NCBI GenBank assembly: GCA_047638595.1
Contig: JBLIMJ010000003.1
Location: 11,710-75,709, forward strand
Length of the DNA: 64,000 bases
Origin: Acidimicrobiales bacterium
Lineage (GTDB): Bacteria > Patescibacteriota > Minisyncoccia > Phycocordibacterales > UBA918
Direction: 5' to 3'
Positions 6,867 to 40,553 of this stretch are shown one piece after another. A model generated the notes under the pieces. The model ran no database searches. It saw only the letters and a program-made list of their open reading frames with translations, and had not been told where the DNA came from. Numbering within the stretch: the first letter of the stretch is position 1; the number at the start of each line of letters is the position of its first letter. The position numbers were made by a program, and so were the translations under genes.

Positions 6867-9800
6867 CTATTTTTCTAGGGATTTGGACACAGCTTGAATC
6901 ATGTCGTACTTAGGCGACCCTTTAAATCCTGACCCTGCTGGAATCAGCTTACCAATAATCACGTTCTCCATAAGTCCTGCGAGATTATCTTGGCTTCCCT
7001 TTACTGCTGAGTTAATCAAAATACGAGTTGTATTTTGGAATGAAGCAGCTGAAAGGAACGACTTTCGCGATAGTGAACTTTCAGTAATACCCATAATGAG
7101 TTTATCAGCCTTTGCTTGTTCTTTACCTTCGGCCTTCAGCTTATTGTTTGCTTCAACAAAGATCCATTCTTCGATCACTTCACCTGGAGTAAAGTGACTG
7201 TCACCAGAAGCGTTTACCTTCACTCGTGACATCATTTGTTTCACAATAAGCTCAATGTGCTTTCGAGAGATAGTCACACCTTGTAGTTCGTAAATCTTAT
7301 TTACTTCAGAAATGATGTAGTCCTGTGTCTGCTCCTTAGTACCATACTTGAACAAGTCTGGTAGATAAGCAGAACCATCAGTCAACATCTGACCTCCAAC
7401 AACATTGTCTCCCTTAGATATTTTTACCACTCGTCGCCAATTTACTTCATACTCAATGACGTCTGACTTTTTCGGAGCGTACTGTGAAGTTTTATCAACT
7501 GCAACAGTAATGAATTTCTCACGTCCTTCTGTTCGAATCTCAGTTACAAAACCTGCAGTTTTAGAAATAATTGCTGGAATCTTCGGTAGTCGTTTTTCAA
7601 ATACTTCTTCTACACGAGGAAGACCTTGTGTAAGGTCACCACCTGCTGAAGATGTACCACCTGCGTGCTTGGTGTTCATCGTAAGCTGTGTACCCGGTTC
7701 ACCAATAGCTTGTGCTGCAATAGTTCCTACTGCTTCACCCATATCCACCAATGCATTGGTTGTAAGATCTACACCGTAACACTTCTGGCATACACCGCGT
7801 AATGTTGCGCAAGTCATCGGAGAACGAACCTCAACTGATTCACACGTACTTTCTTCAACAGATATAGCATCGCGTCGAGTAAGTAAGTGCCCTTTCTTGA
7901 ATATAACGTTATCTTTAGAGTCAACAATATTTGCAGCAATAACTCGTCCCTTCAATGCTTTTGCAAATGAAATCTCAATACCAGAAGCAGAAATGCGTCC
8001 GATATTTGTACTTTCTTTTGTTTTACAGTCTGACTCTGTAATGATAGCGTCCTGTGCAACAACAAAGAGTCGTCGTGTAAGATACCCAGCTTTTGCAGTT
8101 TGAAGTGCAGTGTCGGCAAGTCCTTTTCGAGAACCGTGGGTTGTCGTGAAATACTCAATTGGACTCATGCCCTCCTTCATAGAAGAAATAACGGGGAACT
8201 CAACTGTTTCACCTCGAGTGTTTACAATCAAACCTTTCATACCAACCATCTGAGCAATCTGGCGCATTGATCCACGCGCTCCAGACTTCCAAAGATCATA
8301 TGCTGAACCGTTATGATCCATGTGGTTTGGAATAATTTCTTCCAATTCACTCTTAGTTCTGTGCCAGATCTCAATAACCATTCGTCGACGTTCTTCTCGT
8401 GAGAGAAGTCCTTCTTCGAAGTTCTCTATAATTACTCGTTCCTCTGCTCGAGATTTTTCGATAATAGCGCCCTTCTCTGGTGGTATAACCACTTCATCGA
8501 TTCCCCATGTGGTACCAGAAACGGTTGCATATTTGAAACCAAACTTCTTAATTTTGTTTACCACACTTGGTACGATTTCAGTTCCTTGATCATCAATAAG
8601 GTCAAGTACTACGGCGAAGAGATCTCGTTGAGAAACTACTTCATTAATGTATCGATGATCACTTGGAAGTACCGAGTTGAAGAGAAGTCGTCCTACGGTT
8701 GTTTCAAATATCTGTCCCTCATACTGTGCATATTTAGCAGTATCTGTTGCAAGTACTTTAACTTTTGCTCGGAAATCTACAATATCGTAATCATATGCGT
8801 TAATCGCATCATTGGGAGATGCAAACCACTTTCCTTCTCCTTTTGCTCCTTCGATTTCTTTAGTCATCCAGAATGCTCCGAGTGCCATATCCATAAGTGA
8901 CTCAGATACTACAGGCTCACCTGATCCTGGCTTAAGTACATTCTTGTTTGCAGAAACAATTTCACGAGCTTCAGTCTGTGCTTCTTCAGACAATGGTACA
9001 TGTACCGCCATCTGGTCACCATCGAAATCAGCGTTAAATGCCTTACACACCAATGGATGAATCTGAATTGCATTACCTTCAATCAGTACCGGACGGAATG
9101 CCTGAATACCCTGTCGGTGCAACGTTGGCGCACGGTTAAGTAGTACATGCTTTTCAGCGATAACACCTTCAAGAATTGCCCATACTTCAGGTACACCGTC
9201 TTCAATAAGACGTCCTGCTCCACGGATGTTGTACGCGAGTTCTTGCCGGAGTAATTCTGAGATAACAAACGGTCGGAACAATTCCAGTGCCATGTGTTTT
9301 GGGAGACCACACTGATCAAGTTCAAGTTCTGGACCAATAACAATTACTGAACGTCCAGAATAGTCCACTCGCTTACCAAGCAAGTTCTGTCGAAAGTATC
9401 CCTGCTTACTTTTTAGGTAGTCAGAAAGAGACTTCAATGGTCGGCGTTGTGCCTGACTCATTGCTGAGTATGCAGTGTTCCCGTGACGAATAGAGTTGTC
9501 GATAAGGGCATCAACAGCTTCCTGCATGATTCGCTTCTCGTTACGTAAGATCACGTCTGGCGCCATGATGTCGATAAGCTTCTTCAAACGATTGTTTCGA
9601 TTGATGACGCGTCGATAAAGGTCGTTGAGGTCACTCGATGCGTGTCGTCCACCTTCAAGTGCAACCATTGGACGTAGTGCAGGTGGAATCACAGGAATTC
9701 TCTGGAGAAACATCCATTCAGGACGTACGTTAGCATGAATCAACCCTCGGATGAGGTTCAATCGTTTGTCGAGCTTTGTACGCTCAGCTACTCCTGCAGT

Positions 9801-10556: not shown

Positions 10557-13500
10557 TTAAACGTTGTCTTCTGACTGCGCTGGTAACTCTCGCTTCAGGT
10601 CAACATCAAGGGCAAGTCCTCGGAGTTGATTTACCAGAACGTTGAATGCTGCTGGCGTGTACGGGTGACCAATTGATTCTCCTCGAACAATCGAGTCAAA
10701 TGCTGCACTTCGTCCTACGATATCGTCTGACTTAATAGTGAGCATTTCACGAAGTGTGTACGCAGCTCCGTACCCAAGAAGTGCCCATACTTCCATTTCT
10801 CCAAATCGCTGTCCACCAATCTGAGCCTTACCTCCTAATGGCTGTTGGGTAATCAGTGAGTATGGACCTATTGAACGCATATGAATCTTGTCTTCCACCA
10901 TGTGATGAAGTTTCAAGATATACATATAACCAAGTGCTGTTCTTTGTTCAAATTTTTCACCAGTACGTCCATCTCGTAATTGTAGTTTTCCGTCTCTTGG
11001 GATACCAGCTTCTTCTAATTCATCTTTGATTTCATCTTCCGTTGCAGATGCAAACGGAGGTACAATAGCCTGATATCCAAGTGAGTGAGCAGCCATACCG
11101 AGGTGTAGCTCAAGGATCTGACCAAGGTTCATACGTGATGGCACACCAAGTGGTGTCAAAAGAATATCAACTGGACGTCCATCTTCTGTATAAGGCATAT
11201 CTTCTTCTGGAAGAATTCTTGAGATAACACCCTTGTTACCATGACGTCCTGCAAGCTTGTCACCTACAGATATATTTCGTACCTGTGCAACAGTGACAAG
11301 AATCTTCTTGATAACACCACTTTCTAGATTGTCTCCATTTTCACGAGAGAAAATCTTTACGCCAATTACTCGTCCTCTCTTTCCAGCCTGAAGTCGTAGT
11401 GAAGTATCTTTTACATCTTTAGCCTTTTCACCAAAGATAGATCGGAGTAATCGTTCTTCAGGAGTTAGTTGTGCTTCACCCTTTGGTGTTACCTTACCAA
11501 CAAGAATATCTCCAGGACGTACCTCTGCACCTACACGGATAATTCCGTTTTCGTCGAGGTTCCGAAGTTTCATTTCTGACACATTTGGGATATCTGGAGT
11601 TGTTACTTCAGGTCCAAGCTTTGTGTCTCGTACAGACACATCGAGTTCATCCAGGTGAATAGAAGCAAACTTACTTTTCTTCACAAGGCGTTCTGAAATA
11701 ATAATCGCATCCTCATAGTTCGCACCAGACCATGACATAAATGCTACCAGAGCATTTTGCCCTACCGCCATTTGACCATGATCAGTTGAGGTAGTGTCTG
11801 CAAGCAAGTCGCCTCGCAATAATTTATCTCCAACAGTTACCGCAGGTCGATGATAAAATGCTGAGAAATCGTTGGTTCGCTGGATAGTGGTCAATTCGTA
11901 TTCATCTTTCTTTCCGTCTTTTTTCTGAACTACGATGTGTGTTGCATCACATTCAATAACTTCACCAGCTTCACGGGCTACAAGAACACGTCCTGTATCT
12001 CGTGCAGCCAGTCCTTCAATACCAGTTCCTACAATCGGCGCCTCTGGGATAACACAAGGAGTCGCCTGCTTTTGCATGTTTGAACCCATCAATGTTCGGT
12101 TGGCGTCATCATGATTCAAAAATGGAATCATTGAGGTAGCCACAGAGAATGCCTGGTTGGTTGCAATATCCATGTAGTCAACATCTTTCCTTGCTACCAA
12201 TCGAGGCTCACCCTTACGACGTACTTCTACGTGATCAGGTGTAATTCTGCCCTTGCTATCTACTTCTACTGCAGCATGCGCAATAGTGAATGCTTCTTCC
12301 TCATGTGCGTTAAGATATATAATTTCGCCGGTTAAAATACCTTTCTCTACTTTTACGTATGGTGTTTCTATAATACCGAATCGGTTTACTCGAGCATACA
12401 TTGCAAGACGAAGAATCAAACCAATGTTCGGCCCTTCCGGAGTATGGATTGGGCAGAGTCGTCCGTAGTGTGATGTATGAACGTCACGCACTTCAAAACC
12501 AGCACGTTCTCGTGTCAATCCACCAGGACCAAGCGCTGAAAGTGTACGTAGCCCTTCAAGCTCTCCAAGCACGTTTTGCTGTGGCATGAACTGTGAAAGC
12601 TGGTTTGTGGTAAAGAATTCTTTAATCGCAGCCTGTAGTGGTCGTGGATTAAGAATCTGCATTGGGAGTGAGGTTTCTGCTTCAATAGTCGACATCCGGT
12701 CTTGAATGTTTCGCTTCATACGAGTCATACCAACTCGTACTCGCTGGATAGCCATTTCACCGAAGTATCGTACACGTCGAAATCCGAGGTGGTCGATATC
12801 GTCTGGCATAGCTCCAGGTGTATGGTTGAGTACCATAATGTTCCCAAGAATCAATCGGAAATCCTCAAGTGAGGTTGTTCGTTCATCGGTTGCCTTTTTA
12901 TCAACAGGCCGATCAAAACGACTATTGAAATGATGCCGTCCGATTTCTGAAAGATCGTACCGTTCAGGAGAAAAGATGGAGTTTACAAACTCCTTTGCGT
13001 TATCTACGGTCGCAAGATCACCATCTCGCAGACGTTTATAGACTTCAACATATGAATCATCAGTCGTTTTTGCTGGATCTTTTTCAAGTGTTGCTTTGAT
13101 GTACTCCTCACCTCGCTCTACATCGCTAAAGAGCTTAATCATATCTTCATCTTTCTCAACGCCTAATACGCGGAGAAGTGAAGTGATAGGCACTTTCTTC
13201 TTTCGATCAATTTTAATGTAAATGATTCCATCCGCCTCAGACTCAATTTCAATCCATGCACCACGTGCAGGAATTATTTTTGCTCCAAAGTATGTTTTAC
13301 CCTTAATGTCTTGGGACGTGAAGAAGATACCGTAACTTCGTGCAAGTTGTGGCACCACTACTCGCTCAACACCATTAATGATGAATGTTCCATGATCAGT
13401 CATCACAGGAATATCCGCCAAGAAAATTTCCTGATCCTTTGCGGAATCAAAAGTTTTGTTCTTTAAGACTACTGTTGCACGCAATGGTGCATCATACGTA

Positions 13501-34743: not shown

Positions 34744-34821
34744 GTGGGCCTGTTTGTGCATGAAACACGAAAAAACTCACCCTAGGGTGAGTTTTTTCGT
34801 GTCATCAATTTTATGAGAAGA
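34744..34821. terminator. Two adjacent terminator hairpins (convergent)
   Basis: CCCACAGCAGCGTCTGCTCTGTGGG and CACGAAAAAACTCACCC-TA-GGGTGAGTTTTTTCGTG. Confidence 0.7.
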
Positions 34822-34826
34822 CTCTT

Positions 34827-37010
34827 TTATGAAACAGCTTTCACTGCTTTCATAATTGCCATTTTGACAGCTGATGCTTCATCAGTATATGTACCGTCAA
34901 GTGCACCAGTGAGTGCCATAATAGCTTCTTCAAGTTGTTCACTTGAGATAGATAATACCGCAGTAGTAAGCATGTTTGATACCAGCACCTCTTCTCCTTT
35001 ACGAGATCGGTACACTGCATCAAGGTCAGCTGCCGCGTCAGCAAGTGCAATCATTGGGCGATGAGCAATCAATTGATATGCTGCAACGATATTCCCTGTA
35101 GTAATTGCTTCTGCAAGAGAACCTGCTGTTACTACTTCCGTTTGGGTTTCAACTTCTTGTTCTGCAGCATCATCAGTGACAAGTGATTCCATGCGTGCAA
35201 GATTTAATACCATCCAACCACCTTCACTTGGGAATAGTGTCTTTGCTTGCGCTAATACTGCATCAAGTTTTTCATTTCGTGTTTCTCCAGCTTCCGTTGC
35301 ATTCATGAAGAATCGCATCGCATCACTTGAAAGAAGTGCCTTTTGTGCATGTGCACGATTTTCTAATTCTGACATTTCAATTGACTCATCAGTTTCATCA
35401 CCAATTGTTTCTTCGGCTGCTGCATATTCTACTACAGGAGTTGTAATGGGAAAATCTACAGGTACTGCTTCTGCTACTGCAGAATGTACGTAGTTTTCTG
35501 CTTCTGACTGCATAGAATCATCAGATGCTTCTATACCCATATCTGTAAATGTTGTATGTTCGTGCGCACCTGCTAATGATATTCCTCCAATTGAATCTCG
35601 ACGAACAACTAATACATATGATACAAACAATCCCCAAATAGTTAGTATTGTGTAGAAAATGAGGGTCAGTGCAGGGCCAGCTTCAAAACCAGTATATGGT
35701 ACTTGTGTAAGTGAGATACCTGCAACAAGTGGATCATGTGTACGTGCTTCAAGGACCGTCACCTGATTTTCAACGTCAACTTCTACTTCACATTCTTTTT
35801 CCCTAGTACCTCGCTTTGAAAGTAAAGTGTATTTTGTATCTTTGGTAGGCTTTAATTTCATTGAACCGTCAAATTCAGAACTTTTTTTAGTATCAACTAA
35901 TACATTTCCATGGTTATCAGTAAGCTTTACTTCTTTTGCTCGTGAAGTGTCCCATGTAAGAGTAATAGTTTCTCCTTTTTTGATTTTACTATCAGAGATA
36001 TCAAGATCACAGCGTGGCGTTGAGGATCCTCCACCACCTCCTCCTCCGGTTGCTACATCGATAGATAGAGGGCATTCAATTGAGTCACTTCCTGAATATG
36101 CAGTGAGTATGTAAGTAGCATCAGCTCCAACACGCACTGTCTCAGTATCAGAAAGATTAGTAGAAGCAACTCCATTAATTGAAATAGAATCAATGTCTGT
36201 AGTAGTCCATGTTAGGGTAACGTCTCCACCACCTGTTGGAAGTGCATAATCGCTAGAAGCGAACGTTACGTTGTTAGCACAGGTGAATATTTCTGGATTT
36301 GCAACGGTAATAGTGAGTGGACAAGTCACATCAGCAAAGCCTACTTTGGATGCGGTAAGAATATAAGTAATTGTGTTCGCTACATTCACACTTGTAGAAC
36401 CATCTTCTGCAACCGTACCAACACTGTTGTTGATTGAGACACTGTCAGCATCTGTTGTTGTCCAAGTCAGAGTTGCTGCCCCTCCTCCAGCCGGCAAGGA
36501 GGTAGGTGAAGCTGTAAATGAATCACAACTAGGGGCAGAAGATATTTCCACAACATCAATTGGAGCTGAACAAGTTACAGAACCAACAGTGTTGGTTACT
36601 GTTAAGGTGTAGGTAATGTCAGCAGTTACAGTAACTGCTGCTGAACCATTAACAGCCACAGATCCAACTCCATTGTCGATTGATGTTGTATCTGCATTTG
36701 TAGTGGTCCACGATAGAGTTGACGCCCCACCACCAACAGGTAGTGACGACGGTGATGCTGTAAATGCGCTACAGGTAGGTAACGGGTCGGGTGTGGGATC
36801 AGGAGTTGGATCAGGAGTTGGATCAGGGTCTCCACAACCACCACAGCCACCATCATCTCCACCTCCACCGTCACCATCACCACCGCCAAATGCGGAAACA
36901 ACAGACATGTCGAGTGCAAAGTTATTCGAAAATAGCACTGGCGTTGCAAATGCAAGGACAGCAAAAACAGTAGCAATAAGCAGTCCTGTAGTAATATTTT
37001 TTGTAAACAT
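34827..37010 (-). CDS. Large surface protein: signal peptide, G/D-rich and (DPTP)n linker, four tandem Ig-like repeats, TM helix, C-terminal cytoplasmic domain
   Basis: Start taken at ATG 37010 ('MFTKNITTGLLIATVFAVLAFATPVLFS'). Four ~90-aa repeats each begin with Cys ('C.AFTASPSSLP.GGGA.TL.WTTT.AD..SI'). 'VPYTGFEAGPALTLIFYTILTIWGLFVSYVLVVRRD' looks like a sorting signal, but ~270 aa follow it. Confidence 0.75.
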   Translation of the reverse strand: MFTKNITTGLLIATVFAVLAFATPVLFSNNFALDMSVVSAFGGGDGDGGGGDDGGCGGCGDPDPTPDPTPDPTPDPLPTCSAFTASPSSLPVGGGASTLSWTTTNADTTSIDNGVGSVAVNGSAAVTVTADITYTLTVTNTVGSVTCSAPIDVVEISSAPSCDSFTASPTSLPAGGGAATLTWTTTDADSVSINNSVGTVAEDGSTSVNVANTITYILTASKVGFADVTCPLTITVANPEIFTCANNVTFASSDYALPTGGGDVTLTWTTTDIDSISINGVASTNLSDTETVRVGADATYILTAYSGSDSIECPLSIDVATGGGGGGGSSTPRCDLDISDSKIKKGETITLTWDTSRAKEVKLTDNHGNVLVDTKKSSEFDGSMKLKPTKDTKYTLLSKRGTREKECEVEVDVENQVTVLEARTHDPLVAGISLTQVPYTGFEAGPALTLIFYTILTIWGLFVSYVLVVRRDSIGGISLAGAHEHTTFTDMGIEASDDSMQSEAENYVHSAVAEAVPVDFPITTPVVEYAAAEETIGDETDESIEMSELENRAHAQKALLSSDAMRFFMNATEAGETRNEKLDAVLAQAKTLFPSEGGWMVLNLARMESLVTDDAAEQEVETQTEVVTAGSLAEAITTGNIVAAYQLIAHRPMIALADAAADLDAVYRSRKGEEVLVSNMLTTAVLSISSEQLEEAIMALTGALDGTYTDEASAVKMAIMKAVKAVS

Positions 37011-37110
37011 AAATAAGTATTTAATATAATTTAACCTCTGTATACTCTTACCTACACCAGTACGCAAGAATATTAGAAGTGGGAAGGCAAACTTGTTGCC
37101 TTCCCATGTT

Positions 37111-37659
37111 TCAGAGAGAGATTGGACATGCATCATAGCGACTATCGCAACGGCAACGGTACGGGGTACCTTGCACAACGATAAGTAGCCAATTATTGCA
37201 GCCATAAGGTCGTTCGATTTGGTAGAATGCACGATCAGCCTGGAAGTTAAACTGCCAGATGTCAGTACGTTTCTGATCTGCACGCCAATTCGAGGAAAAT
37301 GGTCGAACGTTAGTTGCAACCCAAGGTTTTGAATTGGGATTTGCTCCACCTGAAACCATCGCGTTATAGATCGTGCTTGAACGAACTTCACCAGTTGTGT
37401 GAGGAGTATTGTACACCCCAGGCGACCGCTGGATCGTACGGCGGATCTTACGGCGATATTTTTGTGGAATTCCCATCAGCTCAAGAGCCACGGAAATATC
37501 CTGGTTACCAAATGGATCAACGCCGATACGATGCCAATGAAAGGCATTTCCGACAATCTTCCCATTTGTATGAACTGCAGATGCTGCAAAACTCGGACGG
37601 GCAGCCAACATGACCAACCCTCCAAAAATCGCTGTCCTGCGAGTGATTGTGCAAGTCAT
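37111..37659 (-). CDS. Secreted protein with twin-arginine-like signal peptide (183 aa)
   Basis: Start at ATG 37659 with AGGAAAGGAAAG upstream. 'MTCTITRRTAIFGGLVMLAARPSFAASA'. Cys-rich C-terminus. Confidence 0.6.
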   Translation of the reverse strand: MTCTITRRTAIFGGLVMLAARPSFAASAVHTNGKIVGNAFHWHRIGVDPFGNQDISVALELMGIPQKYRRKIRRTIQRSPGVYNTPHTTGEVRSSTIYNAMVSGGANPNSKPWVATNVRPFSSNWRADQKRTDIWQFNFQADRAFYQIERPYGCNNWLLIVVQGTPYRCRCDSRYDACPISL

Positions 37660-37675
37660 GATGACTTTCCTTTCC

Positions 37676-38254
37676 TTATTTTGGAAGCAAGCGGAGCGGA
37701 AAACCGAAGCCTTCGCGCCAGTCCCGCCCATTCACAAAACTGTTAAAGCTTTCTGGTGAACAGCGACGCTCTTCACCAGTCGGCAAATTCGTAACGATCT
37801 TTCCAACGACCATAGTATAGTCGTTAATTTCGACACAAAGGTTAACTGCATCGCGTGCCGCATTACGCGGAACTGTGATACGAACCATGCCACTTTGAGC
37901 GACACCGGACGATGTCCAGATACGTCCCTCACGTTTCCAGACAGTTCCGTCAGGCATACGCACGTTGTTAGTGCCAGACCATTCACTTCCTTCGGTGAAT
38001 ACCATTCGGTATTCATAATCGAAACCAGTGATAGTTTGACCGTCACGCTCAAGTCGATTGATGTTTTTGAACATCCAGATAATCTGATCAGTACGAGACC
38101 GACCGTTAGTACGCTGGATGATCTTTGGATCAGATGCGTCTACCGCAATGTGACCAATTTCCATGATCTGCCGTCCAAAGTCCTGTGCCATTACTGGCAA
38201 CGAACCAGCAAACAACAGACCGAAAATAAGGATAGTTTTAAAGATGCTGTTCAT
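37676..38254 (-). CDS. Sec-secreted hypothetical protein (193 aa)
   Basis: Start at ATG 38254 with AAGGAG 6 nt upstream. Signal peptide 'MNSIFKTILIFGLLFAGSLPVMAQ'. Confidence 0.65.
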   Translation of the reverse strand: MNSIFKTILIFGLLFAGSLPVMAQDFGRQIMEIGHIAVDASDPKIIQRTNGRSRTDQIIWMFKNINRLERDGQTITGFDYEYRMVFTEGSEWSGTNNVRMPDGTVWKREGRIWTSSGVAQSGMVRITVPRNAARDAVNLCVEINDYTMVVGKIVTNLPTGEERRCSPESFNSFVNGRDWREGFGFPLRLLPK

Positions 38255-38503
38255 AGCCATCTCCTTTTCTGAAGTCCGATAATTCGGACAGGTTTCAAAG
38301 TACGCTCCACCGAAGCGCTTACTAATACATCTGTAGATGCACAAGTAAACGTTCCGCGAGCTTGGTGCAAGGAAATCGTTCGATTTGCATCGAAATTTCT
38401 TAACACTAAGCTCACTACTTTAACCTGGGTCTAAACCTAGGGAAAATAAATGAATCTGGAGAGAACGTGTGGGTTACGAAACTCAATGAACTTTAACACC
38501 TGT

Positions 38504-38532
38504 AGTATAGCAAATATATTGACATTTGTCAA
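38504..38532 (-). promoter_or_regulatory. Sigma-70-type promoter (TTGACA-17-TATACT) overlapping the palindrome TTGACAAATGTCAA
   Basis: On the minus strand: -35 at 38532-38527, -10 at 38509-38504. Implies a ~240-nt leader for the secreted-protein operon. Confidence 0.5.
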
Positions 38533-38593
38533 TAGCATGGTGTTATACTCTAATACTACCTAAATTCACAAAACACCCTTATCTATAAGGGTA

Positions 38594-39265
38594 TTATATT
38601 GAATATGAGCCAATAAGTACTGATTCGACCATAAATCGGTCATCTTTAGTACCAAAACTGTTGCAAGTGGCCAATGTGAGCTTCGCTTCCCCAGGTGTTT
38701 CAGGGACAAAAACCTCCGTAGCCTTTGCTTTATATACCTTTTTTACCTGATAGACATACTCCATACCATCAGACTGGAGACGGATTTTATCTCCCCATTT
38801 CAGGTCTTGGATACCATTAAATGCTTGAAAATTCTTGTTAAATACATTCGGTAGATAACTCGAATGACCTAAAATAAAGATATTTCCATCAGCTTGAAAG
38901 TCAGCTGAATCGGGGTGTCGAACTGCTCCTGTAAGTAGAGATGCATCAAGATCTGCAATTGTGTGTGATTCTGGGTTGTTTACTTTCACTTCCTTATTAA
39001 GGGTGTCAAAAATAATCTTTAACGGTAATGGAGAGTCTACCTTTGGCACTACTACTAGTTGAGCTACTTCTTCCTGTGTCACAACTTCTTCGACCACAAC
39101 AGATTCCTCAGCTACATCTCGTTCTTTAATAGGTTCAGGGATGAAATCTACGATAAATAAAATTGAGTATGAGAGTAGAATTACAGCAAAAAATACTGTC
39201 AGGAAAGCAACTTTCCGTGCGTACAGTCGTCGATACAGCTCGTTAAGTGATGTTGCTAGTTTCAT
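38594..39265 (-). CDS. Sortase-family transpeptidase
   Basis: N-terminal TM. 'FILGHSS' (His), 'LTLATC' (TLxTC catalytic Cys) and downstream Arg. Start at ATG 39265. Confidence 0.8.
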   Translation of the reverse strand: MKLATSLNELYRRLYARKVAFLTVFFAVILLSYSILFIVDFIPEPIKERDVAEESVVVEEVVTQEEVAQLVVVPKVDSPLPLKIIFDTLNKEVKVNNPESHTIADLDASLLTGAVRHPDSADFQADGNIFILGHSSYLPNVFNKNFQAFNGIQDLKWGDKIRLQSDGMEYVYQVKKVYKAKATEVFVPETPGEAKLTLATCNSFGTKDDRFMVESVLIGSYSI

Positions 39266-39509
39266 ACGTATATATATGATTAAATAAGATTGGACAGAAT
39301 AATACACCATTATCTATATTTGTCAAGGCTATGTATTGACAATTTAATTTAACTGTGATATTGTTTGTCTGTACTGTCCCCCTCTTAAAGGATAAAAGTT
39401 CTCTCAGATATACTGCTCTTCCCTCTCTTTCTTTGTTATAGAGAGTGTTTTGCTGATAGTATGTATGAATTCGACTTTGGGTACACTTTAACTATTTTAT
39501 ACATATTTT

Positions 39510-40553
39510 ATGAACCAGGTTACACAAGAACAAAAAGACTCTGTAACAAAAACATTTGCTATTGTTGGCTTTATTGCTGCAATTCTTTTTGCAGTATGGC
39601 TTGCTGTACAAATTGTAAGTGTTATTCCTTCAGCATTTAGTTCACTTGCATCAATTGCAGATGGTGTCTACAACTACAATGAAGATCAATCACTTATTGT
39701 TGCTACACAAAACAGTATTATAAATACTGGTGAATCATTTACACTCTCATGGACAGAAATGAATCGTTCCGGAGCGTATGCATTTTCATACGCATGCGCC
39801 GAAGGTGTTTCAATTGAAATTCGCGACGCTCAAAACAATATTGGAGCATTAGACTGCAACACACCATTGTCTCTTGGTATTGTGACTTCACTTGATTTAG
39901 TGGTTGCGTCAGAAAAGCAACGATTTACTGATGTTACCTATACCGTGACTTACACACCTAGCGTAAAGTCAGCAAAAGAAATTGCTACAAGCGCAAAGGT
40001 GACTATTGTGAATATACACATTCCAACTGGTGCAGTTCTTGTAGAAGAAGCAACTACTATAGAACCTGAAGAAGGAAACGTAGTTATAAACGAAATTACT
40101 CCAAAGCCACCTACTACAAACCCTGGCACTGGGTTAGTGGCTGGTACACCAACTACTATCGAAGAAATCATTTACGCAATTCCTACTTCTGATCCAAACG
40201 GAAAAATTGATATGCAAGTGACTTTCCTTGGTATTGGAAAACTTTCTGGAAAAACTTTTGTTCGTACTGCTACCCTCGACAAAGACGAAAACGGAGCATT
40301 CCAATTTGAAGTAAAAAATGTTGGTACAAAAACTGCAGACTCATGGAGTTATGAAGCGAATCTGCCATCAGGTATTGAATACAATGCTGGATCACAGAAG
40401 GCGCTTAAGCCTAATGAGAAAGCGATTATCACCATTGGTTTTGAGGGACTGACTCAAGTCGGTACTGAAAAAATTGGTGCTACAGTTACAGCTAAAAATG
40501 ACGTGAACAAAAGGAATAACAGCTTTACCTGGTCTGTTAAAGTAGTTGAGTAA
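39510..40553 (+). CDS. Membrane-anchored extracellular protein (347 aa), unknown function
   Basis: N-terminal TM 'FAIVGFIAAILFAVWLAVQIVSVIP'. Thr/Val-rich beta-type ectodomain. Confidence 0.7.
   Translation: MNQVTQEQKDSVTKTFAIVGFIAAILFAVWLAVQIVSVIPSAFSSLASIADGVYNYNEDQSLIVATQNSIINTGESFTLSWTEMNRSGAYAFSYACAEGVSIEIRDAQNNIGALDCNTPLSLGIVTSLDLVVASEKQRFTDVTYTVTYTPSVKSAKEIATSAKVTIVNIHIPTGAVLVEEATTIEPEEGNVVINEITPKPPTTNPGTGLVAGTPTTIEEIIYAIPTSDPNGKIDMQVTFLGIGKLSGKTFVRTATLDKDENGAFQFEVKNVGTKTADSWSYEANLPSGIEYNAGSQKALKPNEKAIITIGFEGLTQVGTEKIGATVTAKNDVNKRNNSFTWSVKVVE

What the first reader, a model, noticed from the sequence alone, without database searches (positions are those of the whole stretch)
34827..39265. 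Sortase plus a promoter-driven operon of two small secreted proteins (one Tat-like, one Sec) and a giant four-Ig-repeat surface protein with an internal sorting-signal-like segment
A TTGACA-17-TATACT promoter (38504-38532, overlapping the palindrome TTGACAAATGTCAA) with a ~240-nt leader precedes three cotranscribed minus-strand genes. The first (38254-37676) is Sec-secreted. The second (37659-37111) has a twin-arginine-like signal. The third (37010-34827) is an ~730-aa protein with a DPTP linker, four Cys-initiated Ig-like repeats, then 'VPYTG'-hydrophobic-'RRD' and a ~270-aa tail. VPYTG + hydrophobic + RRD resembles an LPXTG-type sorting signal, but it is internal. A sortase (38594-39265) lies immediately upstream, and another membrane-anchored ectodomain protein runs divergently (39510-40553). 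In a reduced, possibly episymbiotic genome this locus is a prime candidate for a host-attachment or surface-display system. The internal sorting signal could mean sortase-mediated cleavage releases or covalently anchors the Ig-repeat ectodomain.
Basis: partly seen in the sequence, partly recalled or inferred. Interest (0 to 1): 0.6.

Follow-up and report, generated by a model that had tools for sequence, protein, structure and literature searches.

The report
Conserved CPR sortase with tailed substrate
In this tiny-genome (Paceibacteria) bacterium a sortase sits beside a surface protein whose sortase-type anchoring signal (VPYTG, membrane helix, Arg-Arg) lies mid-protein, ahead of a conserved 190-residue intracellular domain; about 200 related loci share this uncharacterised gene pair, so it may show how these bacteria build and control their cell surface.

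Summary
The sequence features are real at the stated coordinates. These are a sortase with invariant His/Cys/Arg, two small secreted-type proteins, and a 727-aa protein with four Ig-like domains followed by VPYTG, a TM helix, RR and a 256-aa tail.

The operon reading needs revision. The core unit is divergent membrane protein <-> sortase -> VPYTG protein. It is conserved between gyrB and thrS in about 70 of 80 Paceibacteria genomes, and the sortase is upstream in 50 of 51 metagenome loci that have enough flank.

The two small genes are near-orphans with different codon usage. They form a lineage-specific cassette with its own promoter and a conserved structured leader RNA. The big gene has its own conserved 5' hairpin.

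The VPYTG region is nearly invariant (P, T and G in 73 of 73). AlphaFold places it in an extended stalk next to the membrane.

In several relatives the gene is interrupted at a poly-A run. There the 0-frame product ends in a canonical C-terminal sorting signal (...VPYTG-TM-KKKVS*), and the tail is read in the -1 frame.

Best reading (about 0.55): sortase cleaves at T|G and anchors the Ig ectodomain, leaving a membrane-tethered cytoplasmic domain of unknown fold.

The main caveat is a clade that keeps the sortase and the tail protein but has no VPYTG.

The parts
39510..40553 (+). Divergent 347-aa membrane-anchored protein (N-terminal TM, beta-rich ectodomain); a conserved partner of the locus
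   Evidence: ORF. Orthologue found divergent from the sortase in 64 of 80 genome loci. No Pfam hit; only a weak DUF11-type repeat hit in NCBIfam (E=8e-4, below cutoff).
39299..39326 (-). Promoter-like site upstream of the sortase (TTGACA-16-TATTAT)
   Evidence: Matches 11 of 12 positions. It lies downstream of the alternative 238-aa start, so it favours the 39265 start.
38594..39265 (-). Sortase, 223 aa: N-terminal TM anchor plus catalytic domain (His134, Cys201 in TLATC, Arg210)
   Evidence: PF04203 at E=1.2e-16. Aligned to 2kw8. Triad invariant in 69 orthologues, with clade motifs VRHPDSA, LGHSSYLP, NFQAFNGIQ and LTLATCNSFG. No NCBIfam sortase class model reaches its cutoff.
38575..38592 (-). 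Hairpin immediately after the sortase stop codon (terminator-like)
   Evidence: ACCCTTATCTATAAGGGT, listed. On the minus strand it is followed by TGTTTTGTG.
38504..38532 (-). Promoter-like site TTGACA-17-TATACT for the small-gene cassette; overlaps the inverted repeat TTGACA-AA-TGTCAA (38519-38532)
   Evidence: The -35/-10 are conserved in L084-L086. The TTGACA-NN-TGTCAA repeat recurs in L003, L030, L041 and L084.
38293..38413 (-). Conserved structured leader RNA core. P1 hairpin AGCUUAGUG..GGAAA..UUUCUU..ACCAAGCU, then a variable hairpin P2, then GGAGCGU.CUUUGAAA. It lies within the ~245-nt 5' leader (38255-38497).
   Evidence: Leader fold z = -4.5. No Rfam match at E<=1. nhmmer and covariance model R1 find it only in the sortase-to-big gap of at least 14 other species, upstream of unrelated small ORFs. 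90% of P1 cells pair canonically, and 6 pairs show 3 or more pair types.
37676..38254 (-). smallA, 192 aa, Sec-type signal peptide; a near-orphan
   Evidence: No Pfam, NCBIfam, PHROG or PADLOC hit. Only 2 relatives in 1.84 billion representatives. The 67%-identical relative sits in the same sortase-to-big gap. GC3 is 0.46.
37111..37659 (-). smallB, 182 aa, twin-arginine-type signal peptide, Cys-rich C-terminus (CNN...CRCD..DAC)
   Evidence: Three hits in 5.8 billion, one of them its own 100%-identical cluster representative. Family members in L062, L067, L076 and L083 all lie in the same gap. RR conserved in 7 of 7 members. GC3 is 0.42.
37081..37105 (-). Perfect 10-bp hairpin GGGAAGGCAA-CAAGT-TTGCCTTCCC between smallB and the big gene
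   Evidence: Read. It has no U-tract, so the terminator scan does not list it.
37041..37074 (-). Conserved hairpin element upstream of the big gene: 9-10 bp stem, loop GUAC(N0-4)GGUGUAG, with a Shine-Dalgarno-like sequence in the 3' arm
   Evidence: Found upstream of the big gene in 41 loci, including loci without small genes. One stem position covaries U-A (16) / C-G (24), and there are many G.U pairs. No Rfam match.
34827..37010 (-). Big protein, 727 aa: signal/anchor, Gly/Asp/Cys-rich segment with CGGC, DPTP linker, 4 Ig-like domains, stalk with VPYTG, TM, RR, disordered linker, conserved helical tail
35766..36779 (-). Four tandem Ig-like beta-sandwich domains (aa ~78-415), each bounded by Cys
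   Evidence: AlphaFold pLDDT 87.7, four 7-strand sandwiches. Foldseek matches PTP-delta, contactin, titin and S-layer proteins at E~1e-9. Sequence homologues carry Pfam Ig_ADGRF3, I-set and K319L-like PKD. No direct Pfam hit on the repeats themselves.
35598..35732 (-). Sorting-signal-like module: conserved stalk PLVAGISLTQ, VPYTG (35688-35702), FEAGP, TM helix (35604-35672), RR (35598-35603)
   Evidence: Logo over 73 orthologues: P, T and G 73/73, Y 72/73, V 70/73, basic pair after the TM. VPYTG lies in a pLDDT<50 extended segment between Ig4 and the TM helix.
34830..35393 (-). Conserved ~190-aa cytoplasmic tail domain (ELENRAHAQK..LLSSDAMR..EDGW..GSLAEAI..RPM.ALADAAADLD..LDGTYTDEASAVKMAIMKAVK)
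   Evidence: 147 homologues, all CPR where named, none with a Pfam domain. AlphaFold pLDDT >90, mostly helical. No PDB match by sequence profile and none at E<=0.001 by Foldseek.
34765..34802 (.). Palindromic hairpin just downstream of the big gene stop codon (bidirectional terminator-like)
   Evidence: 17-bp stem flanked by A/T runs.

Best explanation
The locus is a Paceibacteria-wide, vertically inherited cell-surface module. It comprises a membrane-anchored sortase, a type-I membrane protein encoded just downstream, and a divergently transcribed 347-aa membrane protein.

Proposed mechanism:
1. The big protein is exported through its N-terminal signal (inferred).
2. Its four Ig-like domains and an extended stalk lie outside the cell (modelled).
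3. The VPYTG-TM-RR segment stops transfer, exactly like a Gram-positive cell-wall sorting signal (shown by sequence and comparison).
4. The neighbouring sortase cleaves between Thr440 and Gly441 and transfers the Ig ectodomain to the wall or another acceptor (inferred, untested).
5. This leaves behind Gly441-TM-linker-tail, a membrane-tethered, strongly conserved ~190-aa helical cytoplasmic domain of unknown fold.

Because the TM helix and tail are better conserved than the ectodomain, the remnant (or the uncleaved precursor) probably has its own job. The most likely job is holding or organising the sortase/substrate complex, or reporting its state to the cytoplasm (speculative).

The two small genes are not part of this core. 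They are a lineage-specific cassette of orphan secreted proteins inserted at a recurrent hotspot between the sortase and its substrate. The cassette is driven by its own promoter and a conserved structured leader RNA.
For: - Sortase: domain above the Pfam cutoff, His/Cys/Arg aligned to solved sortases, and the triad invariant in 69 orthologues.
- Motif: the consensus is QQPLVAGISL[TS]Q-VPYTG-FEAGP-TM-[RK][RK]. P, T and G are present in 73 of 73 sequences. These are the three positions of LPXTG that this motif retains.
- Accessibility: AlphaFold puts VPYTG in an extended, low-confidence stalk between the last Ig domain and a confident TM helix, so it should be reachable by a membrane-anchored enzyme.
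- Linkage in genomes: a sortase is upstream on the same strand in 69 of 80 genome loci. The gap is under 350 nt in about 40 of them, down to 11 nt or overlapping.
- Linkage in metagenomes: a sortase is upstream in 50 of 51 loci with at least 4.5 kb of upstream sequence.
- Linkage outlasts changed flanks: it persists in L005, where the upstream synteny differs.
- Canonical short products: in L069, L071, L108, L124, L155 and L204 the 0-frame ORF ends ...VPYTGFEAGP-TM-KKK[VR]S*. That is a canonical C-terminal sorting signal.
- Variable tail: the VPYTG-TM part and the sortase stay while the tail varies. The tail is split off in the -1 frame, truncated, or replaced by a divergent sequence. One group has a 0-frame product with only a ~35-aa cytoplasmic end.
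- Other candidates: no other xPxTG-TM-basic candidate occurs in the 64-kb window. In 1.18 Mb of related loci the only other one is a VPETG paralogue next to the big gene in L063.
- Small genes are an insert: near-orphans, deviant GC3, absent from most loci, and preceded by their own conserved leader.
Against: - No experiment and no proteomic evidence of cleavage.
- The signal is not C-terminal in this genome, and no LPXTG-anchor HMM matches it.
- Position 1 is Val, not Leu.
- The TM helix has invariant T, F, Y, L, W and Y residues. That is unlike the generic hydrophobic stretch of ordinary sorting signals and fits a stable membrane protein.
- A clade (L074, L075, L077) keeps an intact sortase 11-15 nt upstream of (or overlapping) a TM+tail protein. 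That protein has no ectodomain and no VPYTG, so the linkage does not depend on the motif.
- gyrB and thrS are equally syntenic, so part of the adjacency reflects low genome rearrangement.
- Whole genomes could not be scanned for other substrates.
Confidence: 0.55

Rival explanations
1. VPYTG is not cleaved. The big protein is a stable single-pass receptor or adhesin. Its conserved stalk, TM helix and cytoplasmic domain work together, for example by coupling what the Ig ectodomain binds to a cytoplasmic partner. The neighbouring sortase serves other substrates encoded elsewhere, and the adjacency is inherited gene order.
For: The TM helix and tail are more conserved than the ectodomain, and the TM has invariant polar and aromatic residues. 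The flanking housekeeping genes gyrB and thrS are just as syntenic. The sortase is retained next to VPYTG-less tail proteins in L074, L075 and L077. No LPXTG-anchor HMM hit.
Against: P, T and G are invariant at the positions a sortase reads, with the exact spacing to a TM segment and a basic pair. 0-frame products in six lineages end as canonical sorting signals. The tail is dispensable, divergent or separately encoded in many lineages while VPYTG-TM and the sortase stay. The sortase gene overlaps or nearly abuts the big gene in some loci.
Confidence: 0.25
2. The TM+tail module is primarily a sortase partner, such as a scaffold, regulator or retention factor, rather than a substrate remnant. 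In most lineages a substrate ectodomain with its sorting signal has become fused to its N-terminus. Sortase action then separates the two.
For: The sortase-tail pair exists without any ectodomain or motif in L074, L075 and L077, and with almost no ectodomain in P0014. The tail is encoded as a separate reading frame or ORF in about 13-18 other lineages. Both the sortase N-terminal TM region and the substrate TM have invariant residues.
Against: There is no direct evidence of interaction. The tail has no recognisable fold relatives. Some lineages seem to lack the canonical tail and still keep the sortase. This rival overlaps with the best explanation rather than excluding it.
Confidence: 0.15
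3. One reading: one promoter drives a three-gene operon. The two small secreted proteins and the Ig protein form a single host-attachment system processed by the sortase.
For: All four genes are on the same strand with short gaps. There is a good promoter-like site upstream of smallA. Small secreted proteins recur at this position in about 25 loci.
Against: The small proteins belong to several unrelated families and are absent from about 40 of 69 loci. They have deviant GC3. A 10-bp hairpin and a separately conserved 5' hairpin element precede the big gene, and the latter is also present in loci with no small genes. The small proteins carry no sorting signal.
Confidence: 0.05

Closest known systems
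LPXTG cell-wall sorting signals and housekeeping sortases of Gram-positive bacteria (e.g. S. aureus SrtA / protein A); from established knowledge
   Same: It has a membrane-anchored Cys transpeptidase with a His/Cys/Arg triad and TLxTC. The substrate has an N-terminal export signal and an xPxTG pentapeptide. About 5 residues later comes a ~23-residue hydrophobic segment followed by basic residues.
   Different: The pentapeptide is VPYTG and is invariant, including the 'X' position. The hydrophobic segment is sequence-conserved. In this genome the basic residues are followed by 256 more residues, including a conserved folded domain. No LPXTG-anchor HMM matches. The sortase fits none of the NCBIfam class A-F/GN models.
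Dedicated sortase / single adjacent target systems (e.g. SrtB-IsdC; the proteobacterial 'marine' class GN sortase TIGR03784 with its neighbouring target); recalled from knowledge of TIGRFAMs descriptions
   Same: One sortase gene is kept next to one target gene with a variant, highly conserved motif across many species.
   Different: It occurs in a different phylum (CPR). The sortase scores only 18 bits against TIGR03784, whose cutoff is 158. The target has a cytoplasmic domain after the signal. Exclusivity (one target per genome) could not be tested.
C-terminal sorting-signal remnant ('C-pep') sensing in Streptococcus gordonii (Hall et al. 2019, Sci Signal; recalled, not read here)
   Same: The membrane-embedded piece left after sortase cleavage may have a function of its own.
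   Different: There the remnant is a ~30-residue peptide sensed by a two-component system. Here it would be a ~287-residue protein with a conserved folded cytoplasmic domain.
dnaX tau/gamma -1 frameshifting at A AAA AAG, and poly(A)-tract transcriptional slippage in reduced genomes (Tamas et al. 2008 PNAS; recalled, not read here)
   Same: In relatives (not in this window) an A7-A9 run containing A AAA AAG separates a short 0-frame product from a long -1-frame product. The -1 frame is under purifying selection directly after the run.
   Different: It is not present in the window's own gene. No stimulatory structure was examined. Ribosomal shifting, RNA-polymerase slippage and phase variation cannot be told apart from DNA alone.

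Membership tests
Sortase family (Pfam PF04203) | Profile match above the curated cutoff | tested here: met
   61 bits against a cutoff of 26.6, E=1.2e-16.
Sortase family (Pfam PF04203) | Catalytic His, Cys (TLxTC) and Arg | tested here: met
   H134, C201 (TLATC) and R210 align to the equivalent positions of 2kw8. All are invariant in 69 orthologues.
Sortase family (Pfam PF04203) | Transpeptidase activity on an xPxTG substrate | not testable with these tools
   Needs a biochemical assay.
Sortase classes A-F and GN (NCBIfam class models) | Class model score above the curated cutoff | tested here: not met
   Best scores are 26-31 bits (sortase_fam, SrtD, and classes E, D, C) against cutoffs of 39-165. 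Class GN scores 18 against 158. This is an unclassified CPR clade.
LPXTG-type cell-wall sorting signal | Pentapeptide LPXTG | tested here: inconclusive
   The motif is VPYTG. P, T and G are invariant (73/73). Leu is replaced by Val (70/73), Thr (2) or Leu (1).
LPXTG-type cell-wall sorting signal | Hydrophobic segment followed by positively charged residues | tested here: met
   Residues 447-469 are hydrophobic, followed by RR. [RK][RK] is present in most orthologues. AlphaFold models the segment as a TM helix with pLDDT >90.
LPXTG-type cell-wall sorting signal | Signal located at the extreme C-terminus | tested here: not met
   256 residues follow RR in the window protein. The feature is met only by the 0-frame products of relatives L069, L071, L108, L124, L155 and L204.
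LPXTG-type cell-wall sorting signal | Match to an LPXTG-anchor profile (Pfam Gram_pos_anchor / TIGR01167) | tested here: not met
   No such hit at E<=0.1 in Pfam or NCBIfam.
LPXTG-type cell-wall sorting signal | N-terminal signal peptide | tested here: inconclusive
   A hydrophobic N-terminus (aa 6-27) is present. No signal-peptide predictor was available, so cleaved and uncleaved forms cannot be told apart.
Dedicated sortase-target pair | Conserved adjacency of sortase and target | tested here: met
   69 of 80 genome loci. 50 of 51 metagenome loci with enough flank.
Dedicated sortase-target pair | Single target per genome | not testable with these tools
   Only 64 kb of this genome and ~17-kb loci of relatives were readable. 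No other candidate was found in them except a VPETG paralogue in L063.
Ig-like / bacterial Ig repeats | Beta-sandwich fold in tandem | tested here: met
   AlphaFold model with four 7-strand sandwiches, pLDDT 87.7. Foldseek matches tandem-Ig proteins at E~1e-9.
Ig-like / bacterial Ig repeats | Direct Pfam Ig/Big/PKD profile match | tested here: not met
   No hit even at E<=10 on the single repeats. Homologues do hit Ig_ADGRF3, I-set and K319L-like PKD.
Tat (twin-arginine) signal peptide, for smallB | RR motif, hydrophobic stretch, AxA-type site | tested here: met
   The window has TRRTAIFGG...SFA|A. Relatives have RRHFLS, RRSFCA, RRVFML and DRRSMI.
Tat (twin-arginine) signal peptide, for smallB | TatA/TatC encoded in the genome | not tested
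   The rest of the genome was not available, and the window was not screened for tat genes.
Known RNA families (Rfam 15), for the smallA leader and the big-gene hairpin | Covariance-model match | tested here: not met
   No hit at gathering score in the window. None at E<=1 in 36900-39600 except a chance miRNA match.
dnaX-type programmed -1 frameshift (relatives only) | Slippery A AAA AAG, with the downstream ORF in the -1 frame under selection | tested here: met
   Seen in L069 and L071: an A9 run, 18 synonymous against 12 nonsynonymous changes in the -1 frame, versus 1/29 and 2/30 in the other frames. Not present in the window gene.

The most novel reading that the evidence does not exclude
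Sortase cleavage at an internal sorting signal is a deliberate way to split one precursor into two working proteins. One is a wall-anchored Ig adhesin. The other is a membrane-tethered cytoplasmic domain that organises or reports surface assembly. Several Paceibacteria lineages achieve the same split by programmed -1 recoding at a poly-A run placed exactly between the sorting signal and the tail. The locus also carries two undescribed conserved RNA elements: a leader in front of interchangeable secreted-protein cassettes, and a Shine-Dalgarno-containing hairpin in front of the substrate gene.
Probability: 0.3. Interest if true: 0.8.

Novelty: new variant of a known kind. Interest (0 to 1): 0.68.

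Why it matters
Sortases are enriched in CPR bacteria (Meheust et al. 2019, PMC6744442). Their substrates and the make-up of the CPR cell surface are essentially unknown, and no paper in the searched library mentions this motif.

This locus offers a concrete, conserved enzyme-substrate pair. It comes with a defined peptide (QVPYTGFE) that can be tested in vitro.

If cleavage occurs, it would be a sortase substrate whose 'tail' is a conserved folded cytoplasmic domain. That would link surface display to the cell interior in organisms that live attached to other cells.

The poly-A recoding sites in relatives would add a case of two-isoform expression in reduced genomes. The two conserved RNA elements would add new cis-regulatory candidates. 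The variable small-protein cassettes are candidates for lineage-specific host-interaction factors.

Tried and rejected
- Family searches: Pfam, NCBIfam, PADLOC and PHROGs on all five proteins gave nothing for smallA, smallB, the tail or the 347-aa protein.
- PHROG hit: the big protein matches phrog_2155, a virion structural protein (E=1.5e-22). The match covers the Ig repeats only. I read it as shared Ig-like domains, not a prophage, because the locus lies between gyrB and thrS in conserved synteny.
- Microcin B17 / PARP hits: these weak hits are low-complexity Gly/Cys/Pro-Asp matches.
- Tail domain: the profile against PDB sequences gave no hit at E<=10. Foldseek against PDB gave nothing at E<=0.001. 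The best matches were C-terminal helical parts of AAA+ clamp-loader subunits (8val_B, E=0.059, TM 0.29). One family member weakly hits the RFC small subunit in NCBIfam (E=0.01). I treat this as unproven.
- Literature: 'VPYTG' returned only unrelated papers. Papers on sortases in CPR mention only their prevalence.
- Automatic alignment of the leader RNA: RNAalifold on a MAFFT alignment gave a poor consensus. I replaced it with a hand-defined P1 stem and a covariance model.
- Integron attC site: I considered this for the palindromic leader. I found no attC-like R'/R'' core sequences on reading it; this was inspection only, not a formal search.
- Sequencing error as the cause of the split genes: unlikely. 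The same A9 / -1 arrangement recurs in independent assemblies, and the -1 frame is under selection.

Full report
**What is in the sequence**

The minus strand between 39326 and 34765 holds the following, in order.
- A promoter-like site at 39326-39299, matching 11 of 12 positions.
- A 223-aa sortase at 38594-39265.
- A short hairpin right after its stop codon (38575-38592).
- A second promoter-like site, TTGACA-17-TATACT, at 38532-38504. It overlaps the inverted repeat TTGACA-AA-TGTCAA.
- A leader of about 245 nt.
- smallA (37676-38254, 192 aa) and smallB (37111-37659, 182 aa).
- A perfect 10-bp hairpin (37081-37105).
- A second, conserved hairpin element (37041-37074).
- The 727-aa 'big' gene (34827-37010), followed by a palindromic hairpin (34765-34802).

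A 347-aa membrane protein is transcribed divergently at 39510-40553. ThrRS and GyrB flank the region.

**Source organism**

The contig is deposited as an 'Acidimicrobiales' MAG. However, nearly all named relatives of the core genes are Patescibacteria: Paceibacteria, Kaiserbacteria and Nomurabacteria. The few that are not carry odd MAG labels of the same kind. The label is almost certainly a binning or taxonomy error, and the 'reduced, possibly episymbiotic genome' guess was right.

**The sortase**

- It matches Pfam Sortase well above the cutoff.
- It aligns with B. anthracis SrtA (2kw8) so that its GH, TLATC and R match the equivalent positions of that structure.
- His134, Cys201 and Arg210 are invariant in 69 orthologues. 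These also share the clade-specific motifs VRHPDSA, LGHSSYLP, NFQAFNGIQ and LTLATCNSFG.
- No NCBIfam class model (A-F, GN) reaches its cutoff, so it belongs to an unclassified CPR clade.

**The big protein**

- The N-terminus is hydrophobic. It is followed by a Gly/Asp/Cys-rich stretch with CGGC and a DPTP linker.
- AlphaFold models residues 61-471 with mean pLDDT 87.7. The model shows four seven-strand beta sandwiches. A low-confidence extended segment (aa 422-443) contains VPYTG (437-441). A confident TM helix follows.
- Foldseek matches tandem-Ig proteins at E about 1e-9.
- The repeats have no direct Pfam hit. Their sequence homologues carry Ig_ADGRF3, I-set and PKD-type domains.
- After the TM helix (447-469) come RR, a disordered acidic linker and a ~190-aa domain (aa ~540-727). 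That domain is modelled at pLDDT >90 as mostly helical.
- The tail has no Pfam or NCBIfam family. It has no PDB relative by sequence profile and no significant Foldseek match.

**Comparative picture: genome loci**

The C-terminal module has 147 detectable homologues, none with a Pfam domain. A scan of GTDB species representatives returned 80 loci. In these the gene order is GyrB, the 347-aa protein (divergent), sortase, big protein, ThrRS.
- The sortase is present in 69 of the 80 loci.
- The 347-aa protein is present in 64.
- ThrRS is present in 69.
- GyrB is present in 58.

Most misses are contig ends.

In about 40 of the 69 loci that hold both genes, the sortase is directly adjacent to the big gene, with gaps from under 350 nt down to overlap.

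**Comparative picture: metagenome loci**

A metagenome scan for the DNA encoding VPYTGFEAGP gave 120 more loci. A sortase lies upstream in 50 of the 51 loci that have at least 4.5 kb of upstream sequence.

**Conservation of the signal region**

The consensus over 73 orthologues is QQPLVAGISL[TS]Q-VPYTG-FEAGP-xLTxxFYxLLxxWALxxAYxxVx-[RK][RK]. P, T and G occur in 73 of 73 sequences, Y in 72 and V in 70.

**The tail is a separable module**

- In L069 and L071 the ORF ends ...VPYTGFEAGP-TM-KKKVS*, which is a textbook C-terminal sorting signal. The tail continues in the -1 frame after an A9 run: GTC ATA AAA AAA AAG GTT TCT TAG.
- Between these two genomes, 28 of the 41 differences in the 120 nt after the run fall on third positions of the -1 frame. 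Synonymous to nonsynonymous counts are 18/12 in that frame, against 1/29 and 2/30 in the other two frames. No start codon intervenes. The long product therefore needs a -1 shift.
- The same holds at other A7-A9 runs. L064, L066, L067 and L116 break at EKKTM..*; there the -1 frame reads KKNDDEVDQSIEMTELENRAH, homologous to the window's DETDESIEMSELENRAH.
- Further examples are L076, L079, L108, L124, L155, L191 and L204, and probably L099, L115, L153 and L171.
- Of 17 A/T runs of 9 nt or longer in 1.18 Mb of loci, 8 lie in this short stretch of the big gene.
- Other lineages have a divergent tail or a truncated one.
- The window's own gene is uninterrupted.

**A counter-example**

In L074, L075 and L077 the orthologue is only 323-353 aa. 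It has an extra N-terminal TM segment, no ectodomain and no VPYTG. An intact sortase still sits 11-15 nt upstream of it or overlaps it. P0014 has almost no ectodomain but keeps VPYTG. So the sortase-tail link does not strictly need the motif. Part of the adjacency may also be plain inherited synteny, since gyrB and thrS are equally fixed.

**The small genes**

- smallA has two relatives among 1.84 billion representative proteins. smallB has three hits among 5.8 billion, one being its own cluster.
- Neither has any family match.
- Their GC3 (0.46 and 0.42) differs from the sortase (0.30), the big gene (0.22) and the 347-aa gene (0.25).
- Their few relatives lie at the same place, between the sortase and the big gene.
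- About 25 other loci carry one to three different small signal-peptide or lipoprotein genes at this spot. They belong to several unrelated families.
- smallB's twin-arginine motif is conserved in all seven family members. Whether a Tat system exists in this genome was not tested.

These genes are therefore a variable cassette at an insertion hotspot, not part of the conserved core.

**Two conserved non-coding elements**

(a) The smallA leader.
- It folds at -75 kcal/mol, z = -4.5, and has no Rfam match.
- Its core (38293-38413) is conserved in L084-L087 with compensatory changes.
- nhmmer and a covariance model of hairpin P1 find it in at least 14 other species. It is always on the coding strand, in the sortase-to-big gap and upstream of the first small ORF. 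The small ORF can be of any family.
- The only hits elsewhere were reverse-strand echoes of the same sites and one E=6 match.
- 90% of P1 cells form standard pairs, and six pairs show three or more pair types. This alignment was fitted to the model, so it leans towards the structure.

(b) The hairpin upstream of the big gene.
- It has a 9-10 bp stem and the loop GUAC(N0-4)GGUGUAG.
- It precedes the big gene in 41 loci, including loci with no small genes.
- One stem position covaries U-A (16) / C-G (24). Frequent G.U pairs point to an RNA-level, strand-specific structure. The 3' arm usually contains a Shine-Dalgarno-like AGGAG.

The big gene thus has its own conserved control element. This argues against a simple three-gene operon.

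**Interpretation**

The best-supported model treats VPYTG-TM-RR as a genuine sortase signal used by the adjacent sortase. Cleavage would anchor the Ig ectodomain outside. It would leave the conserved TM-tail protein in the membrane.

What is shown:
- enzyme integrity;
- motif invariance at the sortase-read positions;
- the modelled topology;
- the tight gene linkage;
- natural variants whose product ends as a canonical signal.

What is inferred:
- the cleavage itself;
- the acceptor;
- any role of the tail.

The conserved TM residues and the VPYTG-less clade keep two rivals alive. One is a stable uncleaved receptor. The other is a TM-tail protein that is primarily a sortase partner.

I put the cleavage model at about 0.55. 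Nothing like this pairing is described in Pfam, NCBIfam, Rfam or the searched literature. I therefore rate it a new variant of a known kind, and of above-average interest.

Noticed in passing
window 38293-38413 (-), within the leader 38255-38497: An undescribed structured RNA motif: hairpin P1 AGCUUAGUG..GGAAA..UUUCUU..ACCAAGCU, a variable hairpin, then GGAGCGU.CUUUGAAA. It precedes the first small secreted-protein gene in the sortase-to-big gap of at least 14 other species, even though the downstream proteins are unrelated. No Rfam match.
   Followed up: partly
window 37041-37074 (-): A conserved hairpin with loop GUAC(N)GGUGUAG and a Shine-Dalgarno-like 3' arm. It sits 30-60 nt upstream of the big gene in 41 loci. 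One stem pair covaries (U-A/C-G) and there are many G.U pairs. It is a possible translational control element or protein-binding site.
   Followed up: partly
L069:8189, L071:8189, L064:1355, L066:1454, L067:4122, L076:8250, L079 ~8195, L108, L116, L124, L155, L191, L204 (and probably L099, L115, L153, L171): In these relatives the big gene is interrupted at an A7-A9 run (A AAA AAG type) lying between the sorting signal and the tail domain. The tail is always in the -1 frame and under purifying selection. This suggests programmed frameshifting, transcriptional slippage or phase variation giving short and long isoforms. L041 and L054 have in-frame A9 runs at the same place.
   Followed up: partly
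L076 ~8250-8306, L191 ~446-510, L099 ~10698-10750: The short 0-frame ending after the poly-A run, KK[VL]xxLxxKY[ST]G..W*, is similar across distant lineages. The short isoform may therefore itself be a selected product (a dual-coding stretch).
   Followed up: no
L074:7911-8882, L075:7986-8972, L077:7836-8897: A clade whose orthologue has two TM segments plus the tail, but no ectodomain and no VPYTG. An intact sortase is still encoded 11-15 nt upstream or overlapping it.
   Followed up: partly
window 38519-38532; also L003:4472, L030:20, L041:5089, L084:1283: The inverted repeat TTGACA-NN-TGTCAA recurs around the promoters of this locus in several species. It is a possible operator for an unknown regulator. 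TTGACAAAT also occurs in the sortase promoter (about 39318-39326).
   Followed up: no
whole window: The MAG is labelled 'Acidimicrobiales bacterium' (MFT75070xx). However, its GC is 42% and nearly all named close homologues of the core genes are Patescibacteria/Paceibacteria. This is a probable taxonomic mislabel.
   Followed up: partly
window ~36830-36890 (aa 41-60 of the big protein): A Gly/Asp-rich stretch with a CGGC (CxxC-type) motif lies just after the signal sequence. It is conserved in orthologues (L067 GCGGCGG, L014 GCGGCGG, L061 CTNCGG, L079 GCCGGG). Its function is unknown.
   Followed up: no
window 34827-40553: The sortase, the big gene and the 347-aa gene have unusually low GC3 (0.22-0.30) compared with the flanking ThrRS and GyrB genes (0.36-0.37). 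The two small genes are higher (0.42-0.46).
   Followed up: no
window 34830-35393 (tail domain): There are weak, unproven echoes of AAA+ clamp-loader/RFC C-terminal helical domains. Foldseek gives 8val_B at E=0.059, and one family member hits the RFC small subunit in NCBIfam at E=0.01. The linker before the domain carries a conserved NLP[TV]G motif in most orthologues; the window has DFPIT instead.
   Followed up: no
L063:9038-10825: A paralogue lies next to the big gene. It has Ig-type repeats, VPETG plus a TM segment, and a different, shorter tail with a second TM segment. It is the only other sortase-signal-like protein seen in 1.18 Mb of related loci.
   Followed up: no
sortase-to-big gaps of L003, L005, L008, L017, L020, L030, L041, L060, L063, L068, L069, L071, L079, L082: Two further recurrent families of small Cys-containing secreted proteins or lipoproteins (8 and 7 members) occupy the same insertion hotspot in other species.
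   Followed up: no
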